Source of the DNA: Okamejei kenojei
Taxonomy: Eukaryota
Reading direction: 5' to 3'
DNA: 63,882 bases
NCBI GenBank assembly: GCA_035221665.1
Contig: JAVHYY010000154.1
Location: 310,119 to 374,000 of the forward strand
Below are positions 1-24,000 of this stretch, piece by piece (positions within the stretch are counted from its first letter, which is position 1; each line of letters starts with the position of its first letter). The position numbers are program-made.

Positions 1-3000
1 ACTATTTTTTTTCCATTTTTACAGATGTATCAAAAGTGAATTTAATCTCTCTCACGTTGATGGTGTTGAGGATCCTCCTGTTCAATGTCCTGTTGACGGC
101 CTGCGTCTGGATGATTTAAGGTGAGGCTGGTTCACTCAAATTGGCACATGGAAAGACATCGTGTGGCCGCTGGTCATGTCCGGAATAAACGGTGCAAGCA
201 ATATTTCTCGATTGTCCATGTCGTAACCCCCCGCTGATCGTCCGGCTCCAGCCACATTGTGAAGTTAATGCTGAATTATTTAGGTTTTTGAACGTTTGCG
301 GAAGGATAGTTACTCGTCACCCTCAGTACACATGCTACTGTTATATATTCTGCTGTTATATAATGATTAATTAACATCGTCTGGCCATTTTGCACCTCCA
401 CCACATACAATTTACATATCGTTCTCAAACGTGTCTATATGTAGAACTTATAGAAACATAGAAACATAGAACATAGGTGCAGGAGTAGGCCATTCGGCCC
501 TTCGAGCCTGCACCGGCATTCAATATGATCATGGCTGATCTTCCATCTCAGTATCCTGTACCTGCCTTCTCTCCATACCCCCTGATCCATTTAGCCACAA
601 GGGCCACATCTAACTCCCTCTTAAATATAGCCAATGAATTGGTGACCTTGGAGAAGTTTCCGTCGGTTGTGGAGATTAAACCTTACTTACAAGATGTCGG
701 ACGTGTTTTCTTTCTGCTAGTCACAACAGGGCCTTCTGTGGCAGAGATTCGCCACTCTCTGTGTGAAAAATGATTTTCTCATCTCGGTGCTAAAAGTCTT
801 CCCCCTTATTCTTAAACTGTGACCCCTTGTTCTGGGGTTCCCCAACATCGGGAACAATCTAGCCTGTCCAACCCCTTAAGAATCTTGTAAGTCTCTATAA
901 GACCCCCCCTCAATCTTGTAAATTCCAACGAGTACAAGCCGAGTCTATCCAGTCTTTCTCCATATGGAAGTCCATCCCAGGAATCAGTCTGGTGAACCTT
1001 CTCTGTACTCTCTCTATGGCAAGAATGTCTTTCCTCAGATTAGGAGACCAAAACTGTACGCAATACTCCAGGTGTGGCCTGACCAAGACCTTGTACAACT
1101 GTAGTAGAACCTCCCTGCTCTTGTACTCAAATCATTTTGCTATGAAATAGCAAATTACTTGCTTTTTAGTTTAGGTAGGATCCACCCAGTTGAACAGTAC
1201 TACTTACATGCATTACACCATAAAACTGAAATCCCTGTGTAAATGTAACCTGTAATAGTAGATTGACAACAAAAAAACACGTTCACTAGTCTTTATTTGG
1301 AAATCGCACATGTTGGATTATATGTGTCTCTACAGCCGTTAAATTGGCACCTTCTCAGTCTAGGTACCATATTAGCAATGGAGTTGGGATATGTATGAAG
1401 GAATGCTCCGAACGTGCTTCCTCACGAAGATCCCTCCATCCGCAGATGCGATTGATATCTAAAAGGATAGTGGGGATAGAGTATGTCATTTAAACAATAA
1501 TTAATAATAATGATAAATTGTTTCATAAATGAGACGTGCAATGTTTGACGTCTGGCAGATTAACGCGAAGGCGCTAAATGGTCCATTGCTTGTTTTAAGA
1601 ATCAGTTTAAATCTAGTTATCCTGTAAGGTCGCATATATAATGCACAAATCTCCCGAATCATTCCCGCAATATCTTCAGACCTTTTTCTAATTCCAGTGC
1701 CAAAAATCTGGTTCAATGCCCTGTAATGGACATGCCAATGCATCGCTGTTCCAGTTTGAGGTTTTATTTACAACAATCAGGACTTTTAATATTCGCTATC
1801 TCAACCTTGCTCGCATGTAAAAGTTTAAGAGCATGCACGTAAAGATTCACTATTTGTAGGAAGGAACTGCAGATCGTGGTTTAAACCGAAAATAGACACA
1901 AAAAGCTGGAGAAACGCAACGGGTCAGACAGCATCTCTAGAGAGAAGGAATGGGTTAGATTTCGGGTCGAGACTCTTCTTCAGACCGAGCCAGGGGAAAA
2001 GGAAACGACAGGTATAGTGAGATATTGAACACACGAACAAAATATATGCAAAAAATGCAACGATTTGCGTTTGGCCTCACTCTGACACTGGAGGAGACCC
2101 AGGGCAGAAAGGCCAGTGTGGTTGTGAGAAGGGGAATGAACATGTTTGACAAGCGGAAGATCAGGTAGGTCCACATGGACTGAGCGAAGGTATTCAGAGA
2201 AACCGTCGGCAAGTCTACGTTTAGTCTCGCCGATGTATAAGAGTTCACACCTTGAACAATGGATATAGAAGACGAGATTGGAGGAGGTTTAAGTTATCCT
2301 CTGCCTAACCTGAAAGGAGTGTCGGGGTCCCTGGACAGAGTGAAGGGAGGAGTTATAGAGATATGCGGTGCGTCACCTGCGTTGCAGATGAAGGTACCTG
2401 GGGAGGGGGTGATTTGGTTGGGTAGTTAACCAGGGAGATGCGGAGTACACGGTCTCTGTGGAAGACGAGAGGTGTAGGTATGGGAAGATGCGACCGGTGG
2501 TGGGATCCCTTTTGAAGGTGGCGATTATGTGTTGTACGGGACGGCTGATGCGGTGAAAGGTAAGGACTACGGGGACCCTGTCCCTGTTGCGACTAGGGGG
2601 AAGAACAGAGCTGCGGGGTGCAGAAATTTATGTTGGACCATTAGCGGCTGAAGTCCCTGTTCAGCAAATGTTGACCAAATCTTACACTCCAACTTTCTTA
2701 TGGCTAGATGTCAGTCCAAGGACTTCAGTTTTCACCGTTCGCTATTCCCTTTATTCAAAACAGGCACATTTTCGCCGCTGGGATTCATCCACCGACGGCA
2801 TGCGGAAGAAATGACCCAACTGCACGTCACGAGGCACAGTCTGTTTTATGAGAACGACTCGACATTCACGATACAAACGATTTCCTATCAGTAATCCCTG
2901 TCCCTTCTCGATAAAATGACAACTTTGTACTTAGGAATTCTTCGATCTTTCAGGTAGAACATTTTCTTCTGCTCAATTAGCTACGTTTGTTTTAACCATA

Positions 3001-21000: not shown

Positions 21001-24000
21001 TGCGGATGCTGCTGGGGTGAAAGATAAATACCAGAAAAATACTGTCGTTGATGCGTCTAGGCGGATGGAGGGAATCTAACGAAGGGGAACATACGAGGAG
21101 ACGCGCGTGAAGGACCCATCTATGATAGAAGGAGTGAAACCACTTTCACTAATGAATAAATATATCTCGAATATCGTTGTATTCAAAACCTTATATTGCA
21201 AGGAGTTGCGGCGGAGTTGGAGCAACTGAGAATAGGGGATAGCATCGTAGTAAGAGGCAGGGTTAGAAGAAATGTCGTCCTGGCAACTATGCGCCTAATA
21301 GACGTCAGTCGGTAGTCTGTCCCCTGTGATGGAGGCAGATAGATCAAGAAAGGGAAGAGAGATTTCAAAAATAGCGCTGGTGCATTTGTTGGCTGGGTGG
21401 AAGTTAGTGGTAACGTTTGTATGTCCACGAGATCTGCATGGATGCAGGAGGTAGCCCCGACACACATTGTTTCTAGTTCCTCCCCGCTTCAATGTCCGAA
21501 TAAGGGTCCAGACCGCAAAAATTACCTATCGTTTTTCCCTGCTCTACATCGGTGAGACCAAGCGTAGGCTTGGCGATCGTTTCGCCGAACACCTGCGCTC
21601 GGTTCGCAATAACCAACCTGATCTCCCGGTAGCTCAGCACTTCAACTCCCCCTCCCATTCCGAATCCGACCTTTCTCTCCTGGGCCTCCTCCATGGCCAG
21701 ACTGAGGCCCACCGTAAATTGGAGGAGCAGCACCTCATATTTCGCTTGGGCAGTTTACACCCCAGCGGTATGAACCCGAGGTGGCGCCATCGAGTGTGGG
21801 TGGCACCATCGAGTGTGGCAGCCTCGCCTGCAGTTGTTAGTCCTTCACCCATTCTTTATTTTTAGTTCGTCAAAAAGTTTTGTTTTAGAAGCCTTTTAGT
21901 ATTTTTTTGTGAGGGGTGGGGGGTGGGGAGGGGGAAACCGTTTTTTCCAGTCCTTACCTGGTCGAGGATGCGTCCTTCCTCGGAGTCGCATCTTCGCCCT
22001 CTCCTCGCGGCCTACCATCTGGATTGGCGCGTCCTTGTCTGTCGTAGACCGGCCAGAGCTTCGAGCTGCAGCTTCAGCGGCGGCACAGCACTGAGGTACC
22101 ATCGCGGGTTGCCGTGTGTAGCTCCGGAGTGCTGGGACTGCCGAATTCAACGTCGTGGAGCTGTGGTCTGCGGAGCTTCCAGCCGCGGCGGCGCAGAATG
22201 TATCATCGCGGATCCTGAGATCTTTCGCCGAGGTCGCCAGTGTTGGAGCTCCGTCCAGCGCGAGCCTGTGGACTTCGGGGGCCGGGGTCTCCGGTAGGAA
22301 GCGCCCGTTTCGGAACTCCAAGCCACTGAGAGCATTCTTCCGAGTTCCATTATTCCCGCGAGAGGGCCTAAAACATCGGGCCGCCGTAGCGGCGGCTGCA
22401 GAGGCCTCAATAGGCCCCGACCACGGGTGAACATAGAGGAAGTGGACGGAAATTTGCTGCCTTCCCTCACAGTGGGATAGGTTGATCCCGCTGTGGGGGG
22501 ATGTTTTTTATGTTTAAGGTTAAATTCTATTGTGTTGTATTTATCTTATTTGTGCACTGCATGGCAACTCAAATTTCACTGCACCAATTGGTGTATGTGA
22601 CAATAAATGTCCTTTGTCCTTTGTCATTTGCATGAACATTGACTTTTCCAATTTCAGGTAGTCCCTGTTTTCTCCTCCCCTCCCAGCTCTCCCTCAGCCC
22701 GCTGTCTCCGCCTCTTCCTTTCTTCTTCCCGCCTCCCCACCCTCACATCAGCCTGAAGGAGGGTCTCGACCTGAAACGTCGCCTATTTCCTTCACTTGCA
22801 TAGATGCTGCCTCACCCTCTGAGTTTTTCCACCATTTTTTTCTGCCTTCGATTTTCCAGCACCTGCAGTTCCTTCTTAAACTATCTGTTTTCCCCAGTTA
22901 TCATGTGACCCGTTGATTTATTCCAGCATTATTGTCCATCTTAGTTGCTCGGGAATATTGACTGGAATTATAGAGGGAGGGGGGTGCTAAACGGTTGGGG
23001 GCTACGTAAGCTGGCCTCCGTTGCCTTAATTTAGGACTTAGGTTGACAGCATAATGACGGACATGGACAAATCAAACGCCGTCAACAATCTATTTCACAG
23101 ACTAGAGGATTCTAAAGCCAGAGGACATCGGTACACGGAAGAGAAATGACGTAGCGGGATGCGAGGAGAAACGTTTTTCACTCAGAGGTTCAGTCCGAAT
23201 TTTAGTTCATGTGTGGAATCAGCTGGCAAAAGGAAAGTATAGATGCGGTAGTAGTTATGATTAAAAAACTATAAGAACAGATATATGATCGGAAAGGTTG
23301 AGGGGGCTGTGAGCCAAACACGCACAAAGGAGGTCAGCAGAATATACCAAATTGGTGGGCATCGTTAACGCGGGCTGTTAAGCATTTTTCCATGCTCTAC
23401 AGCTCTGCGCCACAAAACAGATTGACAGAATAATACGGATCATACGCATTGGTTTGGGGACTTTTGAATGTTGACCCATCATTTCTTGCAATGACCGATT
23501 AATGTTGGTGGACAGGTGTTGCTGAGCTCGTTTTCGCGGTTTACGTTTACGTTGAGGTTTTTGTACAGTGTCGGGGAGTTTTGTAACGCCGTGATACGCA
23601 ACGCACAGAAATAGATGGCGCTATCTTCGACCTTTGCATCAGAAATCACCAAACGGAAGACTTGATAATTTTGGAAAAGGCGAGCGCGGAAGCGTCCCGT
23701 CCCAATGCCCGCATCCATTGGCTTCGTGTTATCCAGATGCATCTGAGGTGCCTCAATCCGGTGCAGGCGGTACCAATAAAGCTCCGGGTTAACATAACTG
23801 GTGTTGTACTTGCAACTGAACTCAGGATGATCTCCTTCAATCGCCTCCACATCGCCCTGATTCTGAACAACGGAATCCCCTTCAATTGTACCTGGAGTGA
23901 ATAATTCAATTCATCTCTTTATCGAATTCTTCGTCGACAAAGCTCACACCAGCAGCAAAAAGTATACGCTAATCTGCCATTAATATGTCCATCGGTATTG

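What the first reader, a model, noticed from the sequence alone, without database searches (positions are those of the whole stretch)
25..23891. V segments lie 3' of the constant-region exon in inverted orientation, implying inversional V(D)J joining
Seen: the TCR C TM exon is on + at 25-120, both V genes are on - with their RSSs facing it, and no J segment (FGxG plus 12-RSS) was recognised in the 63 kb after C. Established: inverted V genes 3' of C occur in mammalian TRD (TRDV3/TRDV5), TRB (TRBV30) and the teleost TRA/TRD locus, and they rearrange by inversion. Inference: use of V1 or V2 would flip, not delete, the C gene and the intervening GPCR pseudogene and would change the enhancer context of GPCR2-4. 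The lack of downstream J segments favours Calpha or a separate mini-locus over a canonical Cdelta.
Basis: partly seen in the sequence, partly recalled or inferred. Interest (0 to 1): 0.75.

Follow-up and report, generated by a model that had tools for sequence, protein, structure and literature searches.

The report
Skate TCR-delta end with inverted V genes
The window starts at the last coding exon of a skate T-cell-receptor delta-like constant gene, followed by two V gene segments that point back at it (one intact, one broken), the layout already known downstream of the mammalian delta constant gene, so it is an ordinary but very old arrangement.

Summary
Observation confirmed. A 96-nt exon (+, 25-120) encodes a TCR-type membrane anchor. 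Two V-set exons lie on the minus strand (V1 12900-13200, V2 23594-23891), each ending in an RSS that faces the C exon. No J, D or further V or C exon was found on either strand of the 63.9 kb.

Interpretation partly supported. Inversional joining follows from the geometry.
- All 4 PDB hits of the anchor exon are TCR delta constant chains, and none is alpha.
- Human TRDV3 is the top-scoring TCR match for V1 (tied with one mouse alpha V) and the clear top for V2.
- V1's best named homologue is coelacanth 'TRDV3' (56% identity).

So this most resembles the mammalian TRDC / inverted-TRDV3 module, here in a skate-like genome, inside a cluster of GPR139-like receptor genes.

V1 looks functional. V2 is probably a pseudogene: stop codon in the leader, degenerate heptamer, LINE inserted just upstream.

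One oddity: the anchor keeps the conserved Arg but has Asn where delta and alpha chains carry the conserved Lys.

Whether TRAJ/TRAC follow beyond the window could not be tested. New member of a known kind; modest interest.

The parts
25..120 (+). Last coding exon (membrane anchor plus stop) of a TCR delta-like constant gene; codons 27-116, TAA 117-119, splice donor at 121
   Evidence: Direct reading. The only PDB matches at E<=10 are 4 TCR delta constant chains, E 0.52-2.5. No Pfam family. Arg is present; Asn sits at the position of the conserved Lys (alignment).
7844..8862 (-). GPR139-like GPCR pseudogene between the C exon and V1
   Evidence: tblastn with GPCR4 gives three HSPs in frames -1, -2 and -3 at 85-88% identity. 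Pfam 7tm_1 matches the fragments.
12861..12899 (-). V1 recombination signal: CACAGTG, 23-nt spacer, ACAAAAAGC
   Evidence: Scores 15 of 16 against the consensus and lies directly after the CALS codons.
12900..13200 (-). V1 V exon (301 nt), open, with both Cys and the WYRQ motif
   Evidence: Pfam V-set E 1e-19. 56% identical to coelacanth 'TRDV3' and 82% to an unnamed rearranged V-(D)-J protein. Human TRDV3 single-domain score 62 bits.
13298..13337 (-). V1 leader exon (ATG at 13337, 40 nt, gtaagt donor; intron 13297-13201)
14569..18620 (-). Near full-length LINE (esterase-type ORF1, endonuclease, reverse transcriptase) between V1 and V2
   Evidence: Pfam Lipase_GDSL_2, Exo_endo_phos and RVT_1. 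95.6-97.2% identical to copies at 2993-5963 and 62706-63882.
23556..23593 (-). V2 recombination signal: CACGGCG, 22-nt spacer, ACAAAAACC
   Evidence: Heptamer 5 of 7, nonamer 9 of 9.
23594..23891 (-). V2 V exon (298 nt), open
   Evidence: Pfam V-set E 7.3e-11. 38% identical to V1. Its two best PDB hits are human TRDV3 chains, at 53.0 and 51.1 bits.
23950..23992 (-). V2 leader exon with in-frame TAG (23971-23969); donor GT at 23949; 58-nt intron
   Evidence: translation from the ATG at 23992, with the stop at codon 8. The tail of a LINE ends about 20 nt upstream.
27455..28462 (-). GPR139-like GPCR gene 2 (open)
   Evidence: Pfam 7tm_1 E 2.5e-14. 67% identical to GPCR4.
48106..49164 (-). GPR139-like GPCR gene 3 (open; its 5' part runs into the N gap 49019-49156)
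   Evidence: Pfam 7tm_1. 93% identical to GPCR4. The gap was left as it is.
59809..60885 (-). GPR139-like GPCR gene 4 (open)
   Evidence: Pfam 7tm_1 E 1.4e-15. Best hit is 89% identical, 'probable G-protein coupled receptor 139' of Leucoraja erinacea.

Best explanation
The window begins at the 3' end of a TCR delta-type constant gene of a skate-like cartilaginous fish. Downstream, in the opposite transcriptional orientation, lie two V gene segments of the TRDV3 type.

V1 has everything a usable germline V needs. Its 23-RSS would pair, under the 12/23 rule, with the 12-RSS of a D-delta (or J-delta) segment lying upstream of the C gene on the + strand. Because the two signals face each other, RAG cutting and end joining would invert the DNA between them (D-J-C, the spacer and the GPCR pseudogene). 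That would create a V1-D-J-C unit on the minus strand and keep the signal joint in the chromosome. This is how human TRDV3 and mouse TRDV5 are used.

V2 is an old, diverged duplicate that is probably dead.

Shown here: exon and RSS anatomy, orientation, V-set identity, delta-like anchor, absence of J in the window. Inferred: the existence of D, J and the other C exons upstream, actual use by inversion, and orthology with mammalian TRDV3.
For: Anatomy:
- C exon boundaries, stop codon and donor.
- V1 has an intact leader, intron and V exon, and an RSS scoring 15 of 16.
- Both RSSs abut the only two V-set exons and face the C exon.

Delta identity of C:
- All 4 PDB hits at E<=10 are TCR delta constant chains, aligned from the start of the anchor exon through the Arg. 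No alpha constant chain appears.

TRDV3-type V genes:
- V2's two best PDB hits are human TRDV3 chains (53.0 and 51.1 bits). The next hit is an antibody construct at 46.8 bits and the next TCR chain scores 45.0.
- V1's best single-domain score is human TRDV3 at 62.0 bits. The antibody constructs that rank above it are multi-domain sums, with each domain at or below about 36 bits.
- V1's best named homologue is coelacanth 'T cell receptor delta variable 3', 56% identity over 98% of V1.

Use in a relative:
- An unnamed 118-aa database protein is 82% identical to V1. It continues past the Cys into a long junction and an FGGGTKLTVL J, so it is a rearranged V-(D)-J.

Precedent:
- An inverted TRDV downstream of TRDC, orthologous in opossum, human and mouse (PMC2275272, passages).
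- An inverted V after the C exon of both the beta and the delta loci is used as an argument for their common origin (PMC12227049, passages).
Against: - The delta assignment rests on 30 residues and weak statistics (E 0.52-2.5). A search of 1.84 billion representatives returned 0 hits at E<=0.001, and the ESM Atlas gave nothing usable.
- The anchor lacks the conserved Lys. It reads Arg-x4-Asn where the human delta chain reads Arg-x4-Lys. Arg and Lys are described as conserved in alpha and delta anchors (PMC2275272; PMC5278385).
- For V1, human TRDV3 (64.2 and 62.4 bits) is not separated from one mouse alpha-chain V (3tf7_C, 62.3 bits). I built no tree, and the coelacanth name is an automatic one.
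- No TRAJ follows within 63.7 kb. Instead there are three open GPCR genes. This differs from the published trdc-(traj)n-trac order unless the J cluster begins further on.
- The D, J and C Ig-domain exons lie outside the window and were not seen.
Confidence: 0.65

Rival explanations
1. The C exon is C-alpha (or a stand-alone mini-locus C), and the V genes are the first members of a teleost-style inverted V cluster lying 3' of the whole D-J-C-delta / J-C-alpha block.
For: - No J segment in the 63.7 kb after the C exon.
- In teleosts the V genes lie 3' of TRAC in the opposite orientation and rearrange by inversion (PMC8559430, passages).
- V1 scores as well against one mouse alpha V as against human TRDV3.
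Against: - No TCR alpha constant chain appears among the PDB hits at E<=10; all 4 hits are delta.
- There are only two V segments in 63.9 kb, 38% identical to each other, followed by 40 kb without any V. That is not a dense V cluster.
- V2's top hits are TRDV3.
Confidence: 0.08
2. The module is a decaying relic: a duplicated or abandoned TRD fragment stranded in a GPCR and LINE-rich region. It no longer rearranges or signals.
For: - The anchor lacks the conserved Lys.
- V2 has a stop codon in its leader, a degenerate heptamer and a LINE inserted about 20 nt upstream of its ATG.
- A GPCR pseudogene and young LINE copies fill the spacer.
- No J in the window.
Against: - V1 is fully intact, with a near-consensus RSS.
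- The C exon keeps its acceptor, reading frame, stop codon and donor.
- A V that is 82% identical to V1 is found rearranged in a database protein.
Confidence: 0.17
3. V1 and V2 belong to a second, oppositely oriented D-J-C cluster on the minus strand beyond the left end of the window. They would then join by deletion, removing the +-strand C gene, as in loci that hold two clusters in opposite orientations.
For: A newt TRD haplotype holds two TRDC-J-V clusters in opposite orientations, and the other haplotype holds an extra V set in opposite orientation (PMC12698447, passages). The sequence to the left of the window is unknown.
Against: - Between the C exon and V1 there is no minus-strand J or C exon.
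- Any such cluster would have to lie beyond the entire +-strand C gene, an arrangement I found in no paper I read.
Confidence: 0.07

Closest known systems
Mammalian TRDC with the inverted downstream V (human TRDV3, mouse TRDV5, opossum TRDV6)
   Same: - V segments 3' of a delta-type C gene, in the opposite orientation, with a 23-type RSS facing C.
- The V sequences are most similar to human TRDV3 among solved TCR chains.
- Use would require inversion. The layout is described in PMC2275272.
   Different: - Two V segments rather than one, the second probably dead.
- 12.7 kb and 23.4 kb of repeat-rich spacer, with a GPCR pseudogene.
- GPCR genes rather than TRAJ segments follow within 63.7 kb.
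- The anchor lacks the conserved Lys.
Teleost TRA/TRD locus (D-J-C-delta, J-C-alpha, then all V genes inverted)
   Same: V genes 3' of a C gene in the opposite orientation, with inversional joining (PMC8559430).
   Different: - In teleosts the C next to the V genes is TRAC, and the V genes number in the hundreds.
- Here the C is delta-like, and only two V genes occur in 63.9 kb.
TRB locus with an inverted V downstream of the last C-beta (TRBV30 type)
   Same: A small number of inverted V genes directly after the C gene (PMC5278385; PMC10972964).
   Different: - The anchor exon here matches delta chains, not beta.
- The V genes match alpha/delta-type V genes.
Newt TRD locus separated from TRA
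   Same: [quoted passage not shown]
   Different: Separation of TRD from TRA is not shown here; the window simply ends. Elasmobranch TCR alpha and delta are described as one translocon locus (PMC12227049).

Membership tests
TRDC (TCR delta constant gene), anchor exon | Sequence closer to delta than to alpha, beta or gamma constant anchors | tested here: met
   All 4 PDB hits at E<=10 are TCR delta constant chains and no other chain type appears. The statistics are weak (E 0.52-2.5).
TRDC (TCR delta constant gene), anchor exon | Two conserved basic residues (Arg and Lys) in the membrane anchor | tested here: not met
   Arg is present, but Asn stands at the Lys position, and the peptide has no Lys after the first three residues. 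The conservation is stated in PMC2275272 and PMC5278385. For this reason I call the exon 'delta-like' and do not file it as a proven canonical TRDC.
TRDC (TCR delta constant gene), anchor exon | One exon encodes the anchor plus a very short cytoplasmic tail | tested here: met
   The acceptor ends at 24 and the stop is at 117-119, directly after the hydrophobic stretch. The exon plan is described for opossum TRAC/TRDC in PMC2275272. A donor follows the stop at 121; that it leads to a 3' UTR exon is recalled from mammalian genes, not tested.
TRDC (TCR delta constant gene), anchor exon | Upstream Ig-domain and connecting-peptide exons, D-delta and J-delta on the same strand | not testable with these tools
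   They would lie to the left of base 1. No eukaryotic genome collection was available.
TRDC (TCR delta constant gene), anchor exon | Followed by the TRAJ cluster and TRAC (order trdc-(traj)n-trac) | tested here: inconclusive
   No J within 63.7 kb. The order and the J-region sizes of 50-200 kb come from PMC10322711. Sequence beyond the window was not available.
Functional germline TCR V gene segment | Split leader, open V-set exon with both Cys and Trp41, and an RSS with a 23+/-1 spacer | tested here: met
   V1 meets every item. V2 fails on the leader (TAG at codon 8) and has a heptamer scoring 5 of 7. V1 is therefore filed as functional-looking and V2 as a probable pseudogene.
Inverted TRDV of the TRDV3/TRDV5/TRDV6 type | Located 3' of TRDC in inverted orientation | tested here: met
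Inverted TRDV of the TRDV3/TRDV5/TRDV6 type | Falls in the same phylogenetic clade as mammalian TRDV3 | tested here: inconclusive
   TRDV3 is the top TCR hit for both V genes, and V1's best named homologue is coelacanth 'TRDV3'. For V1, one mouse alpha V scores the same. No tree was built, because reference TRAV/TRDV sets could not be fetched.
Inverted TRDV of the TRDV3/TRDV5/TRDV6 type | Used in delta chains through inversional V-D-J joining | not testable with these tools
   There is only indirect support: an unnamed rearranged protein 82% identical to V1.
Teleost-type inverted V cluster 3' of TRAC | The adjacent C is TRAC, and many V genes follow | tested here: not met
   The anchor is delta-like and there are only two V genes in 63.9 kb.

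The most novel reading that the evidence does not exclude
The TRDC / inverted-TRDV3 pair is a syntenic unit that predates the split between cartilaginous and bony vertebrates. In this skate lineage the delta constant gene has in addition lost the anchor Lys that recruits a CD3 dimer, and it is cut off from TRAJ/TRAC by a GPR139-like receptor cluster. That would make it a delta locus with altered CD3 docking and possibly independent of TRA.
Probability: 0.12. Interest if true: 0.6.

Novelty: new member of a known kind. Interest (0 to 1): 0.35.

Why it matters
An inverted V directly after the C gene in both the beta and the delta loci has been used as an argument that the two loci arose by duplication of one ancestral locus (PMC12227049, passages). 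Finding the same delta-side layout, with a TRDV3-like V, in a skate would push that feature back to the base of jawed vertebrates.

It would also give a simple test case: one intact V, 12.7 kb from C, for studying inversional joining in a cartilaginous fish.

The Lys-less anchor, if real and expressed, bears on how the delta chain docks to CD3 in these animals.

None of this changes current understanding. It extends a known pattern.

Tried and rejected
- Homologues of the anchor exon. The exhaustive representative search accepted it and found 0 proteins at E<=0.001. The ESM Atlas gave no usable hit. Pfam found no family. I therefore had no cartilaginous-fish delta or alpha constant sequence to compare, and I cannot say whether the missing Lys is a lineage trait, a property of this copy or an assembly error.
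- Looking for V1 fused to a C region among longer proteins. It returned 4 proteins, all bony-fish V-containing models, and none was informative.
- The name and source of the rearranged relative P0001.
- RSS counting as evidence. I rejected it because the count equals chance. Only the placement carries weight.
- A J-like string at 12583-12606 (+). I rejected it: it lacks the F/W-G-x-G motif, it has no RSS scoring >=12 of 16 nearby, and the same sequence recurs in LINE tails.
- A delta exon-1 signature hit at 46584-46607 (+). I rejected it: stop codons flank it and it lies inside a DIRS-like retroelement.
- Papers most likely to show shark delta-locus maps or anchor alignments (PMC7039070, PMC7909615, PMC3222143) are not held.
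- Eight full-text searches turned up no explicit description of an inverted V downstream of C-delta in a cartilaginous fish. That is no proof that none exists. Supplements were closed, including the locus coordinate table of PMC12227049, and they may bear on this.

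
Full report
**Source and constraints**

The window is not human. Its intronless receptor genes are most similar to elasmobranch proteins. The best hit is 89% identical, 'probable G-protein coupled receptor 139' of the little skate Leucoraja erinacea, followed by 75% to Amblyraja radiata. In all, 987 proteins of this family had E<=0.001 among the 8000 candidates scored. 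The window is also full of LINE copies with esterase-type ORF1, endonuclease and reverse-transcriptase domains. I take it for a skate or close relative. The two N runs (39000-39194 and 49019-49156) were left as they are. Spliced models were searched exon by exon: leader and V exons, and the C exon, were never joined for any search, and that joined step is left out.

**The observation: the C exon**

Bases 1-24 are a polypyrimidine tract ending in acag. The exon runs from 25 to 120. Codons 27-116 give a 30-residue hydrophobic anchor, TAA follows at 117-119, and a gtgagg donor follows at 121.

**The observation: the two V genes**

Both lie on the minus strand.

| Feature | V1 | V2 |
|---|---|---|
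| Leader exon | 13337-13298, intact | 23992-23950, in-frame TAG at codon 8 |
| Intron | 97 nt | 58 nt |
| V exon | 13200-12900 | 23891-23594 |
| Pfam V-set E-value | 1e-19 | 7.3e-11 |
| Heptamer | CACAGTG | CACGGCG |
| Spacer | 23 nt | 22 nt |
| Nonamer | ACAAAAAGC | ACAAAAACC |
| RSS span | 12899-12861 | 23593-23556 |

Both signals lie on the side of the V exon that faces the C exon.

**Is this more than chance?**

My scan found exactly two RSS-like sites scoring >=13 of 16 in both strands, and these are the two. The count is not above chance: 200 Markov simulations gave a mean of 2.06, and 124 of 200 had two or more. The bare heptamer is not enriched either, at 5 found against 7.17 expected. 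The evidence is the placement: both sites sit directly after the second Cys of the only two V-set exons in the window.

**No J, D or other C exon**

- None of the 43 FGxG/WGxG motifs has an upstream RSS better than 11 of 16, and the best ones lie in a GT-rich tract at about 54 kb.
- The published J-alpha pattern has no hit.
- The ten RSS-like sites scoring >=12 of 16 compare with 13.1 expected, and they form no D-like pairs.
- C exon-1 signatures give only one chance hit, inside a retroelement.

**What the C exon is**

In the PDB the exon matches only four sequences at E<=10. All four are TCR delta constant chains (E 0.52-2.5), and no alpha, beta or gamma constant chain appears. The alignment runs from the start of the anchor exon through the conserved Arg. 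The statistics are weak because the query has only 30 residues.

There is one departure. Where the human delta chain reads Arg-x4-Lys, this exon reads Arg-x4-Asn. From the shared start motif to the end, it is five residues shorter than the 36-residue human chain fragment. Arg and Lys are described as conserved in alpha and delta anchors and needed for assembly with the other dimers of the receptor complex (PMC2275272, passages; PMC5278385, passages). I therefore call the exon delta-like and do not claim a proven canonical TRDC.

**What the V genes are**

V1 and V2 are 38% identical, so they are old duplicates.

- V2's two best PDB hits are human TRDV3 chains, at 53.0 and 51.1 bits. The next hit is an antibody construct at 46.8 bits, and the next TCR chain scores 45.0.
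- V1's best single-domain score is human TRDV3 at 62.0 bits. The antibody constructs ranked above it are sums over several domains, each at or below about 36 bits.
- One mouse alpha-chain V scores the same as TRDV3 for V1: 62.3 bits against 64.2 and 62.4. The PDB ranking alone therefore does not separate delta-3 from alpha for V1.
- V1's best named homologue is coelacanth 'T cell receptor delta variable 3', 56% identity over 98% of V1. That name is automatic.
- V1, the coelacanth protein, a sturgeon protein and human TRDV3 share a run of motifs around the Trp and in the second half of the domain.
- An unnamed 118-residue protein is 82% identical to V1. It continues into a long junction and a J ending in FGGGTKLTVL, so a V of this type is found rearranged in a relative. 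Its C region and source could not be looked up.

**State of the two V genes**

V1 is intact throughout. V2 has three defects:
- An in-frame TAG at codon 8 of a leader that otherwise resembles V1's and is correctly phased with the V exon.
- A heptamer matching only 5 of 7 positions.
- The tail of a LINE ending about 20 nt upstream of its ATG.

As assembled, V2 is probably a pseudogene.

**Mechanism**

The geometry is tail to tail: C is transcribed rightwards, and the V genes leftwards, with their signals towards C. If D-delta and J-delta lie upstream of C on the + strand, as in every described delta gene, V1's 23-signal would pair with a 12-signal there. The two signals would face each other, so joining inverts the intervening DNA and retains the signal joint. 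This step is inferred from established V(D)J rules and from the mammalian and teleost precedents (PMC2275272; PMC8559430). Nothing in the window shows it happening.

The idea that missing J segments favour C-alpha or a mini-locus is not supported by the sequence of the exon or of the V genes. It is not excluded by position either. A published survey uses the order trdc-(traj)n-trac for its species, cartilaginous fish included, and gives J-alpha regions of 50-200 kb (PMC10322711, passages). Within 63.7 kb the window shows instead three open GPR139-like genes and one pseudogene, all on the minus strand. Either the J cluster starts further on, with the receptor genes nested inside the locus, or delta is detached from alpha. 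Detachment is reported for newts (PMC12698447, passages). For four elasmobranchs, however, alpha and delta are described as one translocon locus (PMC12227049, passages).

**Comparison with what is known**

The closest known arrangement is the mammalian TRDC followed by one inverted V. This is human TRDV3, mouse TRDV5 and opossum TRDV6, which share location, orientation and clade (PMC2275272). An inverted V after the C exon of both beta and delta loci is cited as a trace of their common origin (PMC12227049).

In the chicken paper, none of the passages containing 'inverted' or 'TRDV3' concerns a V downstream of C-delta. The duck passages I read with 'inverted' concern only the beta locus.

I found no paper in the held library that describes the delta-side inverted V in a cartilaginous fish. 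The papers most likely to show it are not held, and supplements were closed.

**Verdict**

This is a new member of a known kind: a delta-like constant gene end with a TRDV3-like inverted V (plus a dead second copy) in a skate-like genome. Interest is modest. It would rise if the layout proves orthologous across jawed vertebrates, if the Lys-less anchor is real and expressed, or if delta proves detached from alpha.

Noticed in passing
window 25-120 (+): The TCR anchor exon keeps the conserved Arg but has Asn at the position of the conserved Lys. It is five residues shorter than the human delta chain fragment it aligns to. This could be a lineage trait, a divergent copy or an assembly error.
   Followed up: partly
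window 23950-24013 (-): The V2 leader has an in-frame TAG at codon 8 (23971-23969). The microsatellite-like tail of a LINE ends about 20 nt upstream of the ATG, so the LINE may have displaced the V2 promoter.
   Followed up: yes
window 7434-9369, 27455-28462, 47697-49235, 59411-61423 (-): There are four copies of a GPR139-like receptor gene (one pseudogene), all on the minus strand. Three share 1.3-2 kb duplicated units at 89-93% nucleotide identity, flanks included. The family is hugely expanded in elasmobranchs (987 hits with E<=0.001 among 8000 scored). Each open frame is preceded by a CT-rich microsatellite read as Ser-Leu repeats, and the annotated relatives cover only about 82-84% of the stop-to-stop frame, so the true 5' end is unclear.
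   Followed up: partly
window 2993-5963, 14569-17543, 62706-63882: Three copies of one LINE family are 95-97% identical to each other. The copy at 14.6-18.6 kb keeps long open frames for the esterase-type ORF1, the endonuclease and the reverse transcriptase, which suggests recent activity.
   Followed up: partly
window 43101-47196 (-): A retroelement with a reverse transcriptase and a tyrosine recombinase (Pfam RVT_1 and Phage_integrase), so a DIRS-like element, with long open frames.
   Followed up: partly
window 53600-54760: A GT/GGT-rich low-complexity tract about 1.1 kb long is open in several frames on both strands (Pro/His/Thr-rich on the minus strand). It produces most of the spurious WGxG motifs in the J scan.
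   Followed up: no
window 18700-19345 (+): Short tandem duplication with a register of about 92 bp and 98% identity, next to the 5' end of the LINE.
   Followed up: no
window 184-189 (+): An AATAAA lies 65 nt after the stop codon of the C exon, inside the presumed intron. Read-through transcripts could end here instead of splicing to a 3' UTR exon.
   Followed up: no
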